A stretch of 64,000 bases of DNA from Pristiophorus japonicus. Taxonomy: Eukaryota. Position 1 is the first letter of the stretch. Each line of letters begins with the position of its first letter. Where the stretch lies: assembly GCF_044704955.1 (NCBI RefSeq), contig NC_091999.1, forward strand, positions 11,470,001 through 11,534,000, given 5' to 3'. The notes below the pieces were generated by a model. The model worked only from the letters and a program-made list of their open reading frames with translations. It was not told where the DNA came from and made no database searches. Positions 6,583 to 63,720 of the stretch are shown piece after piece. Position numbers and translations under genes: made by a program.

Positions 6583-7228
6583 GTCTCAGGCTCTTACAAC
6601 AAACAGAAGGCTTTGGCCCATAAATCCCGGCCCTCTGGTTCCCGCAGGTGCTCGACAGAAAAAGGTAAAAAAATGAGCACCTACCTTTTCCTGCTGTGCC
6701 CACTGGCGATCTCGGTTCTGAGGCCTCCTCGCTCTGTGCATCGGAGCGTGTGTACGTCGGCACATCCGTCGGCTGCAGCTGGAGTCACATGGCACAGGGC
6801 AGCCAATCCAGATACAGTATTTTCTCAGTGATGAATCAGTACAGCTCCACATTGAACACCACTTGGAAGAAGAAACAAGACACATCGATAGCACTATGGC
6901 TGGCCGAGTTGGCCAAGTCTTGAAGAACATAGGAATTGCAGAATTATTAAATTAATCAATAGTTATCGTAATTTTCATCAGTGACGTGTGTTGAAACCAG
7001 CGACTGCAAATAGCGGTGGCAAATAGAACAAAACTACAACCAATCCGAATGTTCTGCAGGTACAAAGCTCAATTACACTTCATAAACCTGTGAAATTATT
7101 AAACTCTAAGCGATTAGATTAATAATCATAAATATGGGAAGAAACAACTTCACGCTAACTTATATTCAGAAAGTGTCAGTCACGATTGGTTGATGTAAGG
7201 GGACCAGCGGTGAGTATCCGCGCTCTGG

Positions 7229-7246
7229 CAGCGCCATCTGGTGGCC
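7229..7246 (-). promoter_or_regulatory. CTCF-binding-element-like motif ~40 bp downstream of a V RSS
   Basis: Minus strand reads GGCCACCAGATGGCGCTG, matching the CTCF core consensus CCASYAGRKGGCRS. Confidence 0.7.
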
Positions 7247-7286
7247 GGTTTTAACGTGTCCTCTTTCAGCTGATCTTGAAGAACAA

Positions 7287-7325
7287 GGTCTCTGTCCAAG
7301 GTTTTCCGAGGCACTTCTCACTGAG
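7287..7325 (-). other. 23-RSS with defective heptamer
   Basis: CTCAGTG-AGAAGTGCCTCGGAAAACCTTGG(23)-ACAGAGACC; the essential CAC is changed to CTC. Confidence 0.85.
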
Positions 7326-8110
7326 GGCCTCAGTGCACAGTAGTACATGGCGCTATCTGCCAGCTGCAGCTCAGTCAGGTGGAAAGCACTGATAGTTTTC
7401 GATTTTTCCAGAATAACAGAGAAACGGCCTTTAACGTCGCCCTTTACAAAAGAATGTGCCTGAATTACAAAAGTAGGTGCCGTGTTATAGCTCTGACGAT
7501 AAAGCTGCAGGCAATAGTTCAATTCTGAGGTTGAATAGTTACAATTAATGGTCATCGAGTTTACTTCCGGATATTGGACTTCTGTTGACCATTGTTTGAT
7601 GAAATCTCCAGAAATCAGTCCTGCAGAAAGCAATGAAACAGATGGAGGAACATATCAGGCATTTCTCTTTCTTTAAGAATATATCGTCGATTTCTCTGTG
7701 TATGGACAGGGCGAGAAAGGGAAGGAGAGAGAAAAACGCTCTAATTAATGGAATTATCTTGATAGATTGAGAGGTGGATCAATAGGGAGACAGAGAGAAA
7801 GGGAGATAAACAGACAGAGCGAGAGAGTTGGAGAGAGAGAAAAATACAGAGAGTGACACACAGAGAGACAGAGAGAAACAGGCCGATAGACAGGCAGAGA
7901 GACACGGAGAACTACAGAGAAACAGAGAGACGGAGAGATACAGACAGATAACAAAGAACGAGACAGAGAGGTTGATAGATCTCGAGATCGATTAATAGAA
8001 CGTAGTTGTGTTAATAGTGGAGTGGACAGACAGAGACAGATGTATAATTAAATAAACTAACCAAATAACAAAGGTGTTAGGCCCGCAATAACGAAACACC
8101 CAAGCTCCAT
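7326..8110 (-). CDS. TRAV: TCR alpha/delta V gene segment (leader exon 8110-8062, V exon 7620-7326); open frame, W41L, probably non-rearranging because of the heptamer
   Basis: Leader MELGCFVIAGLTPLLF-G|gttagt; acceptor tttctgcag; V reads GDFIKQ...INCNYST...LQLYRQ...GRFSV...DSAMYYCALRP; followed by a 23-RSS. Confidence 0.9.
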
Positions 8111-43790: not shown

Positions 43791-45336
43791 GGGGATCAAG
43801 GGGTATGGAGAGAAAGCAGAAAAGTGGTACTGAGGGAATGATCAGCCATGATCTTATCTAATGATGGTTCAGACTCGAAGGGCCGAATGGCCTACTCCTA
43901 CACCTATTTTCTATGTTTCTTTGTTTCTATGTTTCTATGTGCTGATCAGCAAGGGTCAAATCTCCCAGCGGAAACAGTGAATTTTTAAGCTCATCTTCAT
44001 TTAATTGTTTTTTTTTTCTCACTGTAAGTGATCATGTACAAGGCTCGGCATTCATCATCAGTGTCACCGTAATATACCTCCCAATAAATGGACACTGGGA
44101 ACTGTTCCATACACAGGCTTATTGTCTGTTTTCACCCAGTATCTGAACAATATAAAAGGTCTCATCGGATCCGTTAGAGGGCGCCGTGGTCACAGATTCC
44201 TCGCCGCTCCCTGGGGACGTGAACCGTTAAACTTTCTGATTTGTATAAACACATTGTAATTTCAAAGCTTACTTTTATCTGTTTTTGTTTTCATGGGATT
44301 CAGCAAATTTCTCCCATCCCTTTTACTTCATCAGCTATTCATCATCACTATCGCTACCACACTTATGAATTAATCCTTATGCTGCAATTCTTAAAGCTAC
44401 AGCAAGTGACATTTTTATTAGCTGTCGTTTAGAACAATACACCTTATATATTAATATATGGAATGGACGAAATACTCCGAGAGACAAGACTGTAACCCGG
44501 GTGAGGAGTTTCTCCCGTATCACTAACCACCATTTGCCTTTGCATGTGATTAATTTCAGCACAGTGTAATGGCATCTGCTGTTCGTTTCAGGCTGACATT
44601 AATCTAATACTTTCGGCAGAAATTTGGCGAAGGGACTCATAACCCCGTCGAGAAATTAACGACACAGTCGGATGATGGTGGTAAGATATTATCTCGGTGA
44701 AAATACAACGGTTTCAATATAGATGAAGATGTTCAGCTTCCTTCACTCACGCTCACCAATCAGACAGGGATGGAGTTTGATTACCCTTCTGCTGGGGAAA
44801 CACAAGGGGAAGATTTCCACTGGTCTCTGTGGAAATCTCATCTGAAAGTTGTTTTGGCGGAATCACAATGTAATTCTTTTAGAATGCATTCAGTACTTTG
44901 TCAGAAATAGCGACAAGAGCAAATCGACCGCACAGAGTGGACAGATCCCTGTAAACACTAATGTTACAGGAGAAAGACATTAATGCCCTTGTTGAATCAT
45001 TGCACACCAGCAAAAAATAAACAGACAGTCAGTAAAGTGACTGATTCCGGCCTGGTGAATATAATCGCACAATGACGCAATGCTAAAGCTTTCCTCGCCC
45101 CAAAGACTGCACACAGCGAGTGACTGACTCTACAGGCCGATATTTTATGCTGCGACCGTCAGTATCGATGATCAAACCTGCTATCATTAGAACTTATAGA
45201 GACAATCCTTGCAGTAACATTGCCTGAGGCAGCCCCTTCCACAGCTTCCGTTCGCTGCTCTTGTTCTCACCCGCCTTGCCTGCCCTGTGTCATTGGAGAG
45301 ATTGCTGCAGCTGTTACGAAACTGTAAACAGGTGGA

Positions 45337-45470
45337 AGGTTTTGTATAGTAACTGCCGCGTTTCCTCTCAGTGTGTGGTCTAATGCACAGTAATACACCA
45401 CGGTATCCGTGCTCTCCGTTCTCTCAATGACCAGTTGACAGCATTTGTCCGCAGTGAAAACATCCAATTC
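45337..45470 (-). pseudogene. 5'-truncated V remnant (FR3 only) with an intact 23-RSS
   Basis: ADKCCQLVIERTESTDTVVYYCALD; RSS CACACTG-AGAGGAAACGCGGCAGTTACTAT(23)-ACAAAACCT at 45375-45337. Confidence 0.85.
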
Positions 45471-45673
45471 ATGGATGGCAGGCATGGAAAGGACATCGAG
45501 TGGCAAAAAGGTGTGTTCTGGCACTATAGATGGATTTGTGAAGTTCATTTTTATCATTTTGAAATTACCAACTAATGCAAGTCCCCCAGAGGACTTTACC
45601 TTTTCTTGTTCCGTGTAATGTTTTGTCGAACTTTTAAGAAGGACCATGTGACACTCAATGTTTACCAGTGTGA

Positions 45674-45690
45674 GAGTGCCCTCTGGTGAG
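45674..45690 (-). promoter_or_regulatory. CTCF-like motif ~23 bp downstream of a V RSS
   Basis: CTCACCAGAGGGCACTC. Confidence 0.6.
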
Positions 45691-45713
45691 CACCAGCTGG
45701 AACTCTCAGTGTG

Positions 45714-45753
45714 GGTTTTTGTAAGGCATCGGCTATATCTCTGCAGCAGTGTG
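45714..45753 (-). other. 23-type RSS (24-bp spacer)
   Basis: CACACTG-CTGCAGAGATATAGCCGATGCCTT(24)-ACAAAAACC. Confidence 0.9.
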
Positions 45754-46246
45754 GGCTTCATGGCACAGAAATACACGGCGGTGTCGGAGATCAGGGCGTT
45801 GCTGATTGTTAGCTCAGTAATCTTGCTGTTTTTATTAAACGTAGTAGATAATCTGGCAGTGACATCAGGATTTCTGTTTACTTTCCCTGCATAGAGATAA
45901 AACACGAACTGTGGAGGTTGCCAGGGGTGTTGCTTGTACCAGTACACATAAGGGTTAGGAGCACTTGTTTTCAAGGTGGCAGTTAGAGTGACATTACTTT
46001 CCTCTTCAACCATCATTTCAGGAACAGGCTGATCCACTGTGTCTTGTTGGCTCCATTCTAACATAAAATAAAATTAATAGTCATCATCATCATCATCATC
46101 TAAAGCAACATAATCATCGTTAGGATCATGTCATCAATTAGCACATCTGGGTTGTAACATTCGGGGGAGAATTGAATTTTACTGGAAAGGAATTACTTAC
46201 TGAGAAGTGATATAATGATGAGGAGCGGTGTGAGACAGTTGCACAT
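45754..46246 (-). CDS. TRAV: TCR alpha/delta V gene segment (leader 46246-46201, V exon 46057-45754); open frame, Cys23 missing
   Basis: MCNCLTPLLIIISLL-|gtaagt...ttag|WSQQDTVDQP...VTLTATL...YVYWYKQ...DTAVYFCAMKP. Confidence 0.9.
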
Positions 46247-47013
46247 GATGCTCCCGAAGTCTGTAACTCTGCACTCCTGGAAATCCTCTGTCGGAGCAGA
46301 AATACAGATCTCCGCCCCACTGTATTTCTGGTCCAACCAATGCCAAACAGGAAACCGTGGTAGCATTCACTCCAATAACACAGTGCAGGCAAAACAGGTC
46401 AGAGCGACTGCAGCAAATAGAAGCTGTGGGCGGCGCTGCCTTGGGCAGAGTTTTCACAAGCAGGATGCATTTGTAATGGATGTCGTGTTGTCCGCACTTT
46501 CTCTCATAATGATCCCTTCCTTGATTCAAAGGGCACTGTCTTCAGTGTCAGGACGAGTTACAGCCTGAAACAATTGTTCAGTCATTTCTTTGAAGAAGAC
46601 GAAATAAAAAACAGATTCTGAAATAGGGGCGTTACTTTGATATTAATGTATATGTTTTTATGATTTATCATCAATTTTTATGGTGATTTTTCAATGTTAC
46701 TCTTACTGTGCATATGTTGTTAATATCACAACATTTTCAAACTCCATGCTCTGGGGAAGGACACGGGTTCAACCTATAAACGGCGACTTCACGACTGATA
46801 TCAGGATATTCCTCTTCACCCAGAGAGAGTGATCAATATGTGGAATATATTTCAGTTAGAATGGGGAGTAAAATGTACTGGAATCGTTGGATGCTACAAG
46901 GAAACGCGAGAGCTAAGATGTCTCTGGGTGACGGAGATCACCTCTCATTACCTTGTAAACTGCAACGTTTTGGCAATTGGCGCCAATAATTTCACCTCGC
47001 ATATACTAGTACG

Positions 47014-47031
47014 TGCCACCAGAGGGCGGTG
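47014..47031 (+). promoter_or_regulatory. CTCF-like motif between head-to-head V genes
   Basis: TGCCACCAGAGGGCGGTG; paralogs at 63057 and 53863. Confidence 0.7.
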
Positions 47032-47249
47032 CGAAACAGTGAGAAAAACTGAGTGTGGGCAGCCCGGTGTGTGCTCAAAGACATTGTGAGCTGGTGTCAG
47101 TGAGAAACACTAATTGTGGGGGCCCAGGTTGGGTAAGCTCCAAGAAGCCGCTGAGCGGGACTTTGTCTCAATGATAATTCTGCTGATTATAATATCTGTG
47201 ACCTCGTTCTAACAAGAACTCTGTGTACAATCATTCTGCCTCATTTTCA

Positions 47250-47345
47250 GCTGATGAGATAATCCTCCGGGTTTTTAGACTTTCGCTGCTGATTTACACT
47301 ATGATCAGTGCAATTATTGACGCCAATTCCTGATAAGTTGCAGTT
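47250..47345 (+). pseudogene. Truncated remnant of the 63.3 kb leader-V family
   Basis: ataatcctccgggtttttagactttcgctgctgatttacact aligns with ataatgctccggatttacagagttgccctgctgatttacact; the ATG is lost and the rest of the V is missing. Confidence 0.6.
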
Positions 47346-48319
47346 CATAAGGAAATGAAAACTAGTTGGGCTACTCACTCGTTCTCGTGTTGGCTTCAGC
47401 ATCTACAGAGATCCGAGCTCTCGCCTTGCCTTGTCATCCACGATTCAAGTGTATTGTACTCCCTATGTTAACTGAAATCTATTCTGCACATTGATCACTC
47501 TCTGTGCGTGAAGAGGAATTTCCTGATACGATTCTTAAATTCTCCATTAATAGTTTGAACAGCTGTCATTCCGCAAATAAATGCTAATATTTTCAACATC
47601 TCAACATTACTATTAACATTGAATACTCACAATAAGAATTCATAATAATCCTTAAAAACACACATATTAATTTCAAAGCAACGTATCTATTTCCAAATCT
47701 GCTTCTTTCATCACTTTTCTTCATGTAAGTTGCTGAACGATGTTTTCAGTCTGTAACTCACCCCGACACTGAAATCATCGGCGAACACATGTTCCCACTG
47801 TCATCTGGTGGCGACTGCAGTTAATGGTACAACTAGTGCCTTCTCCCAGTTCACAGGATCATTCGAAATGAGCGAAGCCATTCGGCCCTTATTGTCCCAG
47901 CCACCCAGAGAGATACTATCTTCCATATCGACTGGGCCTCAAAATTTTCCTTAAACGATTCCAGGATATATTCTTCGACCACCCTATTCAGAAATGTATT
48001 TCATACATTCACAAATTTCCAAGTGTGAGGAAGATATCGTCCTATAATTACCATTTAAATTTTGAACTCCTTCTCCTCTATTCTACTTCAAACAGTTCAA
48101 TTTAATCTAATATCTTTTAAGCATCAACTATGTGATACTAGTCGAGATATATTTGTAGTCCCGCACTGGGATATGCTGCTGATTATGTCTGAATCCTAAT
48201 TTATTAAAGATGAAGGAACATAGCAGTAGGCCATGCAACCATTCTAGCTTCATCAGCAAATCTAGTAGATCATAACTGATCTGTATTATAACTCCATCTG
48301 CCACATCTGGTTCTGCATT

Positions 48320-58700: not shown

Positions 58701-58990
58701 TTTCACCTAGTAGATTAATCTATAACAAGGTGCATAGTTTCAGAATAAGGGGTCGCCCATTTAAGACGGAGATGAGGAACAATATCTTCTCTCAGAAGGT
58801 CGTGAATCTTTTGACATCTCTAGCCCGGAGAGACAGTCAGATTTTTGAACAGCAGGGGAGTCAAGGTTTATGGGGAACAGGCAGGAAAGTGAAGTTGATA
58901 CCACGATCACATAAGCCATGATCTTATTAAAGAGCGGAGCAGGCTCGAGGGGCCAAATGGCCTAATGCTCCTCCTATTTCTTATGTTCTT
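55760..58990. mobile_element. Nested CR1 LINEs: a + strand element (55760-55980, resuming ~58310-58990) interrupted by a - strand CR1 (55985-58310)
   Basis: FADDTKIGG on +; on -, GKRDLNM, GFMKGKSC, FADDTKL and RPHLEYC; the + strand resumes with C-terminal RT sequence and a tail. Confidence 0.88.
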
Positions 58991-61584: not shown

Positions 61585-63056
61585 CTGCAAACATGTTCAA
61601 ACTTGAAAAGATCAGACTGCCGGGATAATAAATTCAGATTTAATGCATGATGGAACTGAATGTATAGACAAAATGTGAGTTACTCACCATCATCGTCTTC
61701 ACCTTCATTTTACGAATGCTAACATTTGCGTTACAATAGCCAGGGGGAGTAGATTTTTCTTGGGAAGGAAATAGTTAATGAGGAGTGATAGATCTGCATG
61801 ATGCTCCCTAAATCTGTAACTGTCCCGTCCTGTAAATCCTCTGTCGGATCAGAAATACAGATCCCCGCCCAACTGCACTGCTGAACCAACCAATAGCAAA
61901 CATGGAACAGCGTCAGCAATCTCTCCAATTACAAAGGGCAGGCAATGCGGGTCACTGCAACTGCAGCAAGTGGAAGCTGTGGGCTGTGCAGACGCGTTCA
62001 GTGTTGTCACACACAGGATGCATTTGTGAGGGATTGGCGCGCTGTCCTCACTTTCTCTCACAATGATCCTTTCCTTCTTTGAAATAATCCATCCCAAGGA
62101 GACAGACCTGCTGCTCACGGATGTGACAGAGTTTTAAGCAGCATCATATCCCAGTGCCTGACTGCAATGACATCTGGAAGAGTATCGGAAAGTTCATGTG
62201 TTAAAACATATATGCAATAATACATAAAATTGAACTGTTCGATGTAGAACAGGGCAGCAAGGGTTCAAAGTATGAGGTAATTATAGGACAGTATCTTCTT
62301 CCCACTGGGTTGGTGAAGAATGTGTGGAATAAGTTGACGGATAGAGTGGTGGCAGAGCATTTCCTGGTACCGTATGAGGAAAATTTTGAGGCCACAGTGG
62401 GGCTGGGAGTTAGTATGTCTCTGGATGAAAGATACAGGATGGTCCAAATGGCCTCCTTCGTTCTGAATTATCATGTAAGCTGGAACAAGGAAGGCGATCA
62501 GCTTATAGTTACAAGTAGTGACCAGAACGTTTATTGGGAAGTTGTGTTCAGTCTGTTGTTTTCAGTGTCGGGCCTGTTACAGACAAAAAACATTTTTCAA
62601 TAACTTCATTGAACAAAAGGGGTTAATGAAATAGATTCGGTAATAGAGACGTTTCTTTGAAATTGATATCTGTTTTTTTATAGATAATTATCATTTTATG
62701 TTGCGGTTATTCAGTGTTATTTTACTGTTCATATGCTGTCAGGATGAGAATGAAAATTTCGCACTCGACCATTCTGGGGAAGGATGTAGGATCAAACTAT
62801 AAAAGGAGATTTTATGGCTGGTGTCACGAAATACATCTTCACAGACACAAAGTGATCAATGTGTGTAATATGTTTCAGTTACATTGGAGAGTAAAATACA
62901 CTGGAATATTTGGATGCTCGAATGGAAGGCGAGAACTAGGAACTCTCTTGATGGTGTGGCCGACCTGAGCAGGAGCAAGTAGAAAACCATAATGCATTAA
63001 CTCGTGAAAGTATCTGGAATGGGCATCAATAATTGCACCTCGCAAATACGAGTATG

Positions 63057-63074
63057 CACTGCTAGAGGGCGGTT
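63057..63074 (+). promoter_or_regulatory. CTCF-like motif ~280 bp upstream of a V ATG
   Basis: CACTGCTAGAGGGCGGTT; paralog of 47014. Confidence 0.55.
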
Positions 63075-63346
63075 TGAGGCAGTGAGAAAAACTGAGTGTG
63101 GGCGGCCCGGGGTGAGCTCAGACACAGTGCGAGCTGATGTGAATGATAAACACTGAGCGTCGGCGGCCCGGGGTAGATAAAAACTGAGATATGTTTCGTT
63201 TCGATAGTTCAAGAGGACAAGCCTCTGAATTGGACATGAGCGGGTCTTTGTATACTTGCTAACTCTCCTGAATACCTTATCCATACCCAGTTTCGAACAC
63301 GACCTCTGTGTACAATTTGACAGCCTCTTGTTCACTTTATCTGATA

Positions 63347-63681
63347 ATGCTCCGGATTTACAGAGTTGCCCTGCTGATTTACACTCTGCTCTGCATGGAT
63401 GTGAATGGCGAAGATGAGTTGCTGCAACACCCTTGGCGGATGGTTGTAAGTGAAGAGGGAACTGTATCCATCAACTGCTCTGCTATCAGTGTTTTTAACA
63501 TGCTGCGCTGGTACAGACAGCACCCAAATCAAACCCTTGAGCATCTGGTGATGGCCACAAGCGGGGCCGAGCAACACGGAAGGATCACTGCTTCAGTCGG
63601 GCAAGGCTATAAACTCAGTACACTAACTGTAAGAGATGCACAAGTGACAGACACCGCCACCTATCTCTGCACCGTGAAGCC
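63347..63681 (+). CDS. TRAV: Apparently functional TRAV segment with leader and V in a single exon
   Basis: Continuous MLRIYRVALLIYTLLCMDVNG-EDELLQHP...INCS...LRWYRQ...GRITAS...DTATYLCTVKP; C23, W41 and C104 intact. Confidence 0.92.
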
Positions 63682-63720
63682 CACAGTGTAACAAACAGAT
63701 GGAGAGTCTGCACATAAACC
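63682..63720 (+). other. Near-consensus 23-RSS
   Basis: CACAGTG-TAACAAACAGATGGAGAGTCTGC(23)-ACATAAACC. Confidence 0.95.

What the first reader, a model, noticed from the sequence alone, without database searches (positions are those of the whole stretch)
63347..63720. Intact germline V gene whose leader is fused to the V exon (no leader intron) yet keeps its RSS
Seen: a hydrophobic signal peptide (MLRIYRVALLIYTLLCMDVNG) runs straight into FR1 with no GT-AG intron, whereas every other V here with an identifiable leader has a split one. The RSS is near-consensus, so this is not a retrocopy of a rearranged transcript. Its short CDR1 (NCSAISVFNMLRWYRQ) differs from the neighbouring families. Inference: precise intron loss, for example by gene conversion from a reverse-transcribed germline transcript in this LINE-rich region. 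The 47 kb paralog suggests a 5'UTR intron instead (gggtaagc donor ~47131, ttttcag acceptor ~47250).
Basis: partly seen in the sequence, partly recalled or inferred. Interest (0 to 1): 0.7.

Follow-up and report, generated by a model that had tools for sequence, protein, structure and literature searches.

The report
Shark TCR-alpha V family, unsplit leader
This intact T-cell receptor alpha variable gene, likely from a shark, encodes its predicted signal peptide and variable domain in one exon; the whole small gene family is built this way, likely through one old intron loss, and chickens are already known to have such genes.

Summary
63347-63681 is one open frame, a 21-codon hydrophobic leader running into a V-set domain, followed by a 23-spacer RSS. 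The leader-intron acceptor, found at one fixed position in 56 of 61 open-frame V exons surveyed in this genome, is absent.

It is not a one-gene event. Ten family copies were found; 8 of the 9 aligned lack the acceptor, including a second intact gene 135 kb away. Gap-free orthologous leaders occur in a Chiloscyllium gene model and an unnamed contig. The closest relative family keeps a normal split leader, so the loss is likely old and happened once. Precise intron deletion is favoured over exonisation of the intron end, but only weakly; reverse-transcript conversion is untested.

Two side claims fail: the 5-residue CDR1 is common here (22 of 71), and the proposed 5'UTR intron sites are not kept in this gene. 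Single-exon leaders on rearranging V genes are published for chicken TRAV1 and TRGV1; I found no report for sharks, but key shark papers were not available. Likely a convergent, modest-interest case.

The parts
63347..63409 (+). Predicted signal peptide, 21 codons, in the same exon as the V domain; usual leader-intron position is 63398/63399
   Evidence: peak 10-residue hydropathy 2.62; basic N-terminus; Val at -3 and Gly at -1. No signal-peptide predictor was available.
63410..63681 (+). TRAV-type V region with Cys23, Trp41, Cys104 and a 5-residue CDR1
   Evidence: (best TCR hits TRAV12-3)
63682..63720 (+). 23-spacer RSS: heptamer 63682-63688, spacer 63689-63711, nonamer 63712-63720
63059..63071 (+). 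CTCF-like motif about 290 nt upstream of the ATG, likely in the promoter region; also at 47016 in the paralog
   Evidence: motif pattern recalled, binding not tested
63080..63174 (+). About 60-nt repeated units upstream of the gene, expanded to more copies in two paralogs
46975..47306 (+). Truncated pseudogene paralog: upstream flank and leader codons, start codon lost, no V domain
47308..48185 (-). Inverted copy of the family's upstream flank that abuts and truncates the 47 kb paralog
   Evidence: 69% identity to 62135-63038

Best explanation
This is an intact TCR-alpha V gene whose predicted signal peptide and V domain share one exon, a state held by its whole small family and likely caused by a single precise loss of the leader intron in the family's ancestor. 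Shown: open frame, RSS, no acceptor, family-wide state, and a J array with a constant exon on the opposite strand about 1.8-1.95 Mb away. Inferred: the gene would join a J segment by inversion, and the mRNA would need no leader splice to give a secretory-pathway alpha chain. The later copies arose by DNA duplication. For the loss itself I favour in-place conversion by a reverse transcript of a spliced germline transcript over exact deletion by end-joining, about 60:40; neither was tested.
For: Acceptor at codon -26 in 56 of 61 open-frame V exons; 2 of the 5 exceptions are this family, the other 3 are single damaged members of split families. No AG at the junction in 8 of 9 aligned copies. Second intact copy at G000:C23:11668893 (67%) has its ATG one codon earlier, so an in-exon start is kept in both. 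Orthologs P0005 (Chiloscyllium punctatum model, 50%) and P0003 (unnamed JGI contig, 57%) align over the leader without gaps and read on through the RSS. The four form a clade (100/96 and 97/94) next to a split-leader family whose intron is at the canonical site. Leader DNA matches that family's first exon better than its intron end (z 2.1 and 2.6 versus -0.3 and -1.8). Against a more distant family, ungapped identity peaks in exact register with the exon junction (0.43 versus 0.26-0.33 shifted; intron 0.20). 30 J-like hits and a C1 exon on the minus strand.
Against: The origin test is weak: mean z over 44 split genes is 0.84 for exons and 0.96 for intron ends, one family's intron ends score z up to 2.8, and the 85-nt test gives z 1.0 versus 0.8 for the sister family. 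One truncated copy (L037) has AG at the junction. Leader differences between the two intact copies show no third-position bias (5, 3, 3). The exon structure of P0005 and of the Callorhinchus relative P0018 was not seen at DNA level. The next outgroup (L007-L010) has an ambiguous leader, which blurs polarity. Expression was not shown.
Confidence: 0.65

Rival explanations
1. Exonisation: the acceptor decayed, and an in-frame ATG in the pyrimidine-rich 3' end of the old intron (or in an inserted LINE tail) became the new signal peptide while the old first exon was lost or became non-coding.
For: This route is visible in the locus: L101, L113 and L115 carry an in-frame ATG and hydrophobic stretch in their intron ends, and in L087 a LINE-like tail at the acceptor supplies one. 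One copy has CAG at the junction. A donor-like GT about 175 nt upstream is kept in 6 of 9 copies, and an AG 23 nt upstream of the ATG in 4 of 9, including both intact genes.
Against: The sister family's exon matches better than its intron end. No relic leader exon lies upstream. The candidate acceptors score 2.0 or lower, below the locus's own 39 acceptors (minimum 3.1, self-trained matrix). The donor is AT in the 63 kb gene.
Confidence: 0.22
2. The gene is in fact spliced: a distant upstream exon joins a cryptic acceptor, and the apparent leader is incidental.
For: A hydrophobic ATG-to-GTAAGT mini-frame lies at 58965; a weak AG lies 17 nt into the frame (score 3.1).
Against: The 58965 frame is phase 0, the 17-nt AG is phase 2, and the frame lies in what reads as a LINE 3' end. 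The leader is gap-free across three lineages and 67-87% identical across the 8 paralogs, against 62-66% for the upstream DNA in the 7 copies where it is homologous.
Confidence: 0.05
3. The unsplit leader is inherited from a jawed-vertebrate ancestor and is homologous to the single-exon leader of bird TRAV1.
For: The AU test does not reject joining the shark clade with a bird TRAV1-type V (p = 0.055).
Against: In both free trees the bird row (P0193, TRAV1-type by the QVQQ motif) falls far away, on a long branch, and a split-leader shark family is closer. The exon structure of that bird gene was not seen.
Confidence: 0.08

Closest known systems
Chicken TRAV1 (V-alpha-1) family and most chicken TRGV1 genes
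   Same: Unrearranged V genes with an RSS whose leader is in the same exon as the V (PMC10972964, passages: all TRAV1 members but three).
   Different: The chicken family is large (48 genes); this one has 2 intact copies of 9 aligned. Trees place it apart from the bird TRAV1-type row, so the origin is likely independent.
Marsupial TCR-mu Vj (TRMVj)
   Same: Leader intron missing; retrotransposition with homologous recombination proposed (PMC2275272 and PMC6170632, passages).
   Different: TRMVj is already joined to D and J in the germline; this gene is unjoined and keeps its RSS.
Mammalian TRAV12/17/20-like V genes
   Same: Best sequence hits; weakly supported shared branch; 5-residue CDR1 in a TRAV17-named protein (P0208, output).
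   Different: About 30-35% identity; these genes have split leaders (recalled, not tested here).
Leaderless supporting V of shark NAR-TCR (recalled)
   Same: Shark TCR V without a separate leader exon.
   Different: Those depend on splicing from an upstream rearranged exon through an acceptor; this gene has its own ATG and no acceptor.

Membership tests
TRAV gene | V-set domain with Cys23, Trp41, Cys104 in an open frame | tested here: met
TRAV gene | 3' RSS with 23-nt spacer | tested here: met
TRAV gene | Lies in a V array linked to a long 12-RSS J array and an alpha-type constant exon | tested here: met
   PF09291 22.8 bits, just over cut-off, E 0.41; 30 J-like hits in 9 sampled 10-kb stretches
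TRAV gene | Found rearranged and expressed with C-alpha | not testable with these tools
   No RNA run was listed
Canonical split-leader V gene | Phase-1 intron 26 codons before Cys23 | tested here: not met
Single-exon-leader V gene (chicken TRAV1 type of architecture) | ATG, hydrophobic leader and V in one frame, RSS kept | tested here: met
Avian TRAV1 lineage | Forms one clade with bird TRAV1 | tested here: inconclusive
   Apart in both free trees; AU p = 0.055; one long-branch bird row
Processed retrocopy of a rearranged transcript (TRMVj type) | Joined to J, RSS gone, native flanks absent | tested here: not met

The most novel reading that the evidence does not exclude
A shark TCR-alpha V clade lost the canonical leader intron independently of birds, by germline reverse transcription of an unrearranged V transcript and conversion in place. 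The same wider clade may have fused its leader a second time in four dispersed copies (L007-L010). That would show that sterile V transcripts feed back into the germline.
Probability: 0.25. Interest if true: 0.55.

Novelty: new member of a known kind. Interest (0 to 1): 0.3.

Why it matters
The split leader is described as found in all antigen-receptor genes (PMC12227049, passage), and the chicken case as unique (PMC10972964). A likely independent shark case shows the intron is dispensable for a rearranging V gene. It weakens the use of 'no leader intron' as proof of retrotransposition of a rearranged mRNA. In practice, V-gene finders run with the single-exon option off (as in PMC12698447) could mis-annotate this family. 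No new receptor function follows from it.

Tried and rejected
Transcripts: no RNA holder was listed; this is no evidence either way. Word-indexed homolog searches with the single protein found nothing; the full HMMER search and the profile search found the two orthologs. The metagenome DNA scan returned 1 distant V (L050), not the orthologs' DNA; L050 was left out of all counts. Upstream leader-exon candidates at 58965 and 62063 were rejected (phase 0; the first lies in a LINE-like end). The 5'UTR intron was tested by conservation and site scores and is unsupported but not excluded. Earlier scan findings: none by place, sequence or words. Eight literature searches gave no description of an unsplit leader in a shark V gene. 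Five relevant papers were not held (PMC3402333, PMC521460, PMC7039070, PMC7909615, PMC3222143), so 'not in print' is not established. For the nurse shark paper PMC5931798 I read passages and part 1 of 2 of supplement 1 (junctions only); its figures and 3 other supplements were not seen, so a match to a named nurse shark V-alpha family is open. No structure prediction was run, since the fold was not in question.

Full report
Observation. The frame 63347-63682 (+) gives 112 residues without a stop: a 21-residue hydrophobic leader, then a V-set domain. A perfect heptamer, 23-nt spacer and near-consensus nonamer follow. PDB sequence hits are mostly TCR-alpha V domains, TRAV12-3 first among them.

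Locus. The window is G000:C23:11470001-11534000, inside a V array of about 9.77-11.67 Mb. Nine sampled 10-kb stretches between 9.50 and 9.77 Mb gave 30 J-like hits, all on the minus strand at 9.60-9.74 Mb, and a C1-type exon lies at 9.58 Mb on the same strand. This is the layout of a TCR-alpha locus. The gene is on the plus strand, so it would rearrange by inversion (inference). The closest named homologs come from Chiloscyllium and Callorhinchus, so the genome is likely a shark's.

Census. I fetched flanks for the V hits of two protein searches; this is a sample biased towards relatives of the query, not the whole locus. Of 78 raw rows, 69 passed the motif filter and 61 were stop-free. 56 of these 61 have an AG in phase 1 of the codon 26 upstream of Cys23. 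The five exceptions are this gene, its intact paralog L002, and L087, L090 and L108, single members of split families with a LINE-like insertion, a mutated acceptor and a 2-nt shifted acceptor.

Family. A DNA search gave 19 matches: 10 gene copies and 9 hits to the upstream repeat unit. I aligned 9 of the 10, leaving out C616, whose match equals that of C12:113 Mb. Two are intact (this gene and C23:11668893); the others have frameshifts, deletions or truncation. Eight of nine lack AG at the junction. Two paralogs share about 2 kb of 5' flank with this gene, so the copies are DNA duplicates that postdate the fused state. The two intact copies use ATGs one codon apart.

Other species. HMMER over 1.84 billion proteins returned two full-length relatives, P0003 (57%) and P0005 (50%). 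P0005 is a Chiloscyllium punctatum gene model; P0003 comes from an unnamed 1001-nt JGI contig. Both align over the leader without gaps. Both run on through the RSS in residues that match translations of this family's heptamer and spacer, so they are germline orthologs. P0003 is likely one contiguous frame, because such contigs are called without splicing (recalled). The exon structure of P0005 was not seen.

Tree. The four form a clade (100/96, 97/94). It groups with a family of split-leader pseudogenes (L004, L006, L011, L012; intron of 310-330 nt at the canonical site in six copies) and with Callorhinchus P0018. A bird TRAV1-type V falls elsewhere, but the AU test does not reject a joint clade (p = 0.055). 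Only about 98 columns were available and the bird row is a long branch. Since nearly all other families are split, loss in this family is the simplest reading.

Mechanism. Precise loss predicts that the leader resembles a first exon; exonisation predicts that it resembles an intron end. Against two sister-family genes the exon scores z 2.1 and 2.6, the intron end -0.3 and -1.8. Against the L021/L078 family ungapped identity peaks in exact register with the junction (0.43). Against this, the mean over 44 split genes shows no preference, one family's intron ends score up to z 2.8, and the longer test is flat. The locus also shows that intron ends and LINE tails can supply in-frame hydrophobic starts. 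Precise loss is therefore favoured, not shown. Reverse-transcript conversion versus end-joining cannot be separated from sequence.

CDR1 of 5 residues occurs in 22 of 71 V rows, including a large split-leader family. RT or endonuclease domains were found in 3 of 16 window frames scanned, but present-day LINEs say nothing about an event older than the family's duplications. The 47 kb donor GT is kept in 6 of 9 copies and reads AT in the 63 kb gene; the 47 kb acceptor is unique to that copy. Another AG, 23 nt before the ATG, is kept in both intact genes but scores low. A 5'UTR intron is thus possible but unsupported.

What is known. PMC10972964 (passages) states that chicken TRAV1 genes, all but three, and most TRGV1 genes encode the leader in one exon with the V. 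PMC2275272 and PMC6170632 (passages) describe the intronless but germline-joined TRMVj. PMC12227049 (passages) calls the split leader canonical for all antigen-receptor genes. PMC5278385, PMC12698447 and PMC12529555 (passages) report no such family in duck, newt or axolotl in the passages seen. Eight searches found no shark report, but five key papers were not held.

Verdict. A real feature and the ordinary state of a small, old shark TRAV family; a new and likely convergent member of a known kind. Interest 0.3.

Noticed in passing
L007-L010 (G000:C23 at 20.2, 52.4, 51.2, 65.1 Mb): Four dispersed TRAV-like genes with RSS, far from the main array. All keep an in-frame ATG 25 codons before the mature start and an AG three codons later than the canonical acceptor. 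For L007 no convincing leader exon or J was found in the 5.8 kb up to the next V. Possibly a second fused-leader family, or leaderless orphons.
   Followed up: partly
L087 (G000:C23:9862548-9863827): A LINE-like 3' tail sits at the acceptor of a V gene and supplies an in-frame ATG and a hydrophobic stretch, making a chance fused leader.
   Followed up: partly
L004, L006, L011, L012, L015, L017: Sister family with an AT-rich repetitive leader intron; all six copies seen are broken, five by a shared TGA in FR3.
   Followed up: partly
L036, L038, L039 (G000:C12 and C616): Orphon pseudogene copies of the family on another contig, with internal deletions shared by the two aligned.
   Followed up: partly
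window 45267-46073 (-): An intact V ending at 45753 is followed 380 nt later by a second V-end fragment with its own RSS at 45375.
   Followed up: no
window 7169-7654 (-): A further V exon with an acceptor whose heptamer starts with CTC rather than CAC, missed by the RSS scan.
   Followed up: partly
window 7232, 14219, 16036, 29753, 47016, 63059: CTCF-like motifs, several close to V promoters or just downstream of an RSS (pattern recalled).
   Followed up: no
window and G000:C23 9.77-11.67 Mb: V genes lie on both strands throughout the array, so many would rearrange by inversion.
   Followed up: partly
L160 and L177 (G000:C645) versus L161: Contig C645 carries the same V pair as C23 11.67 Mb (an L078-type V upstream of a fused-leader V), both frameshifted; a second block outside the main array.
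   Followed up: no
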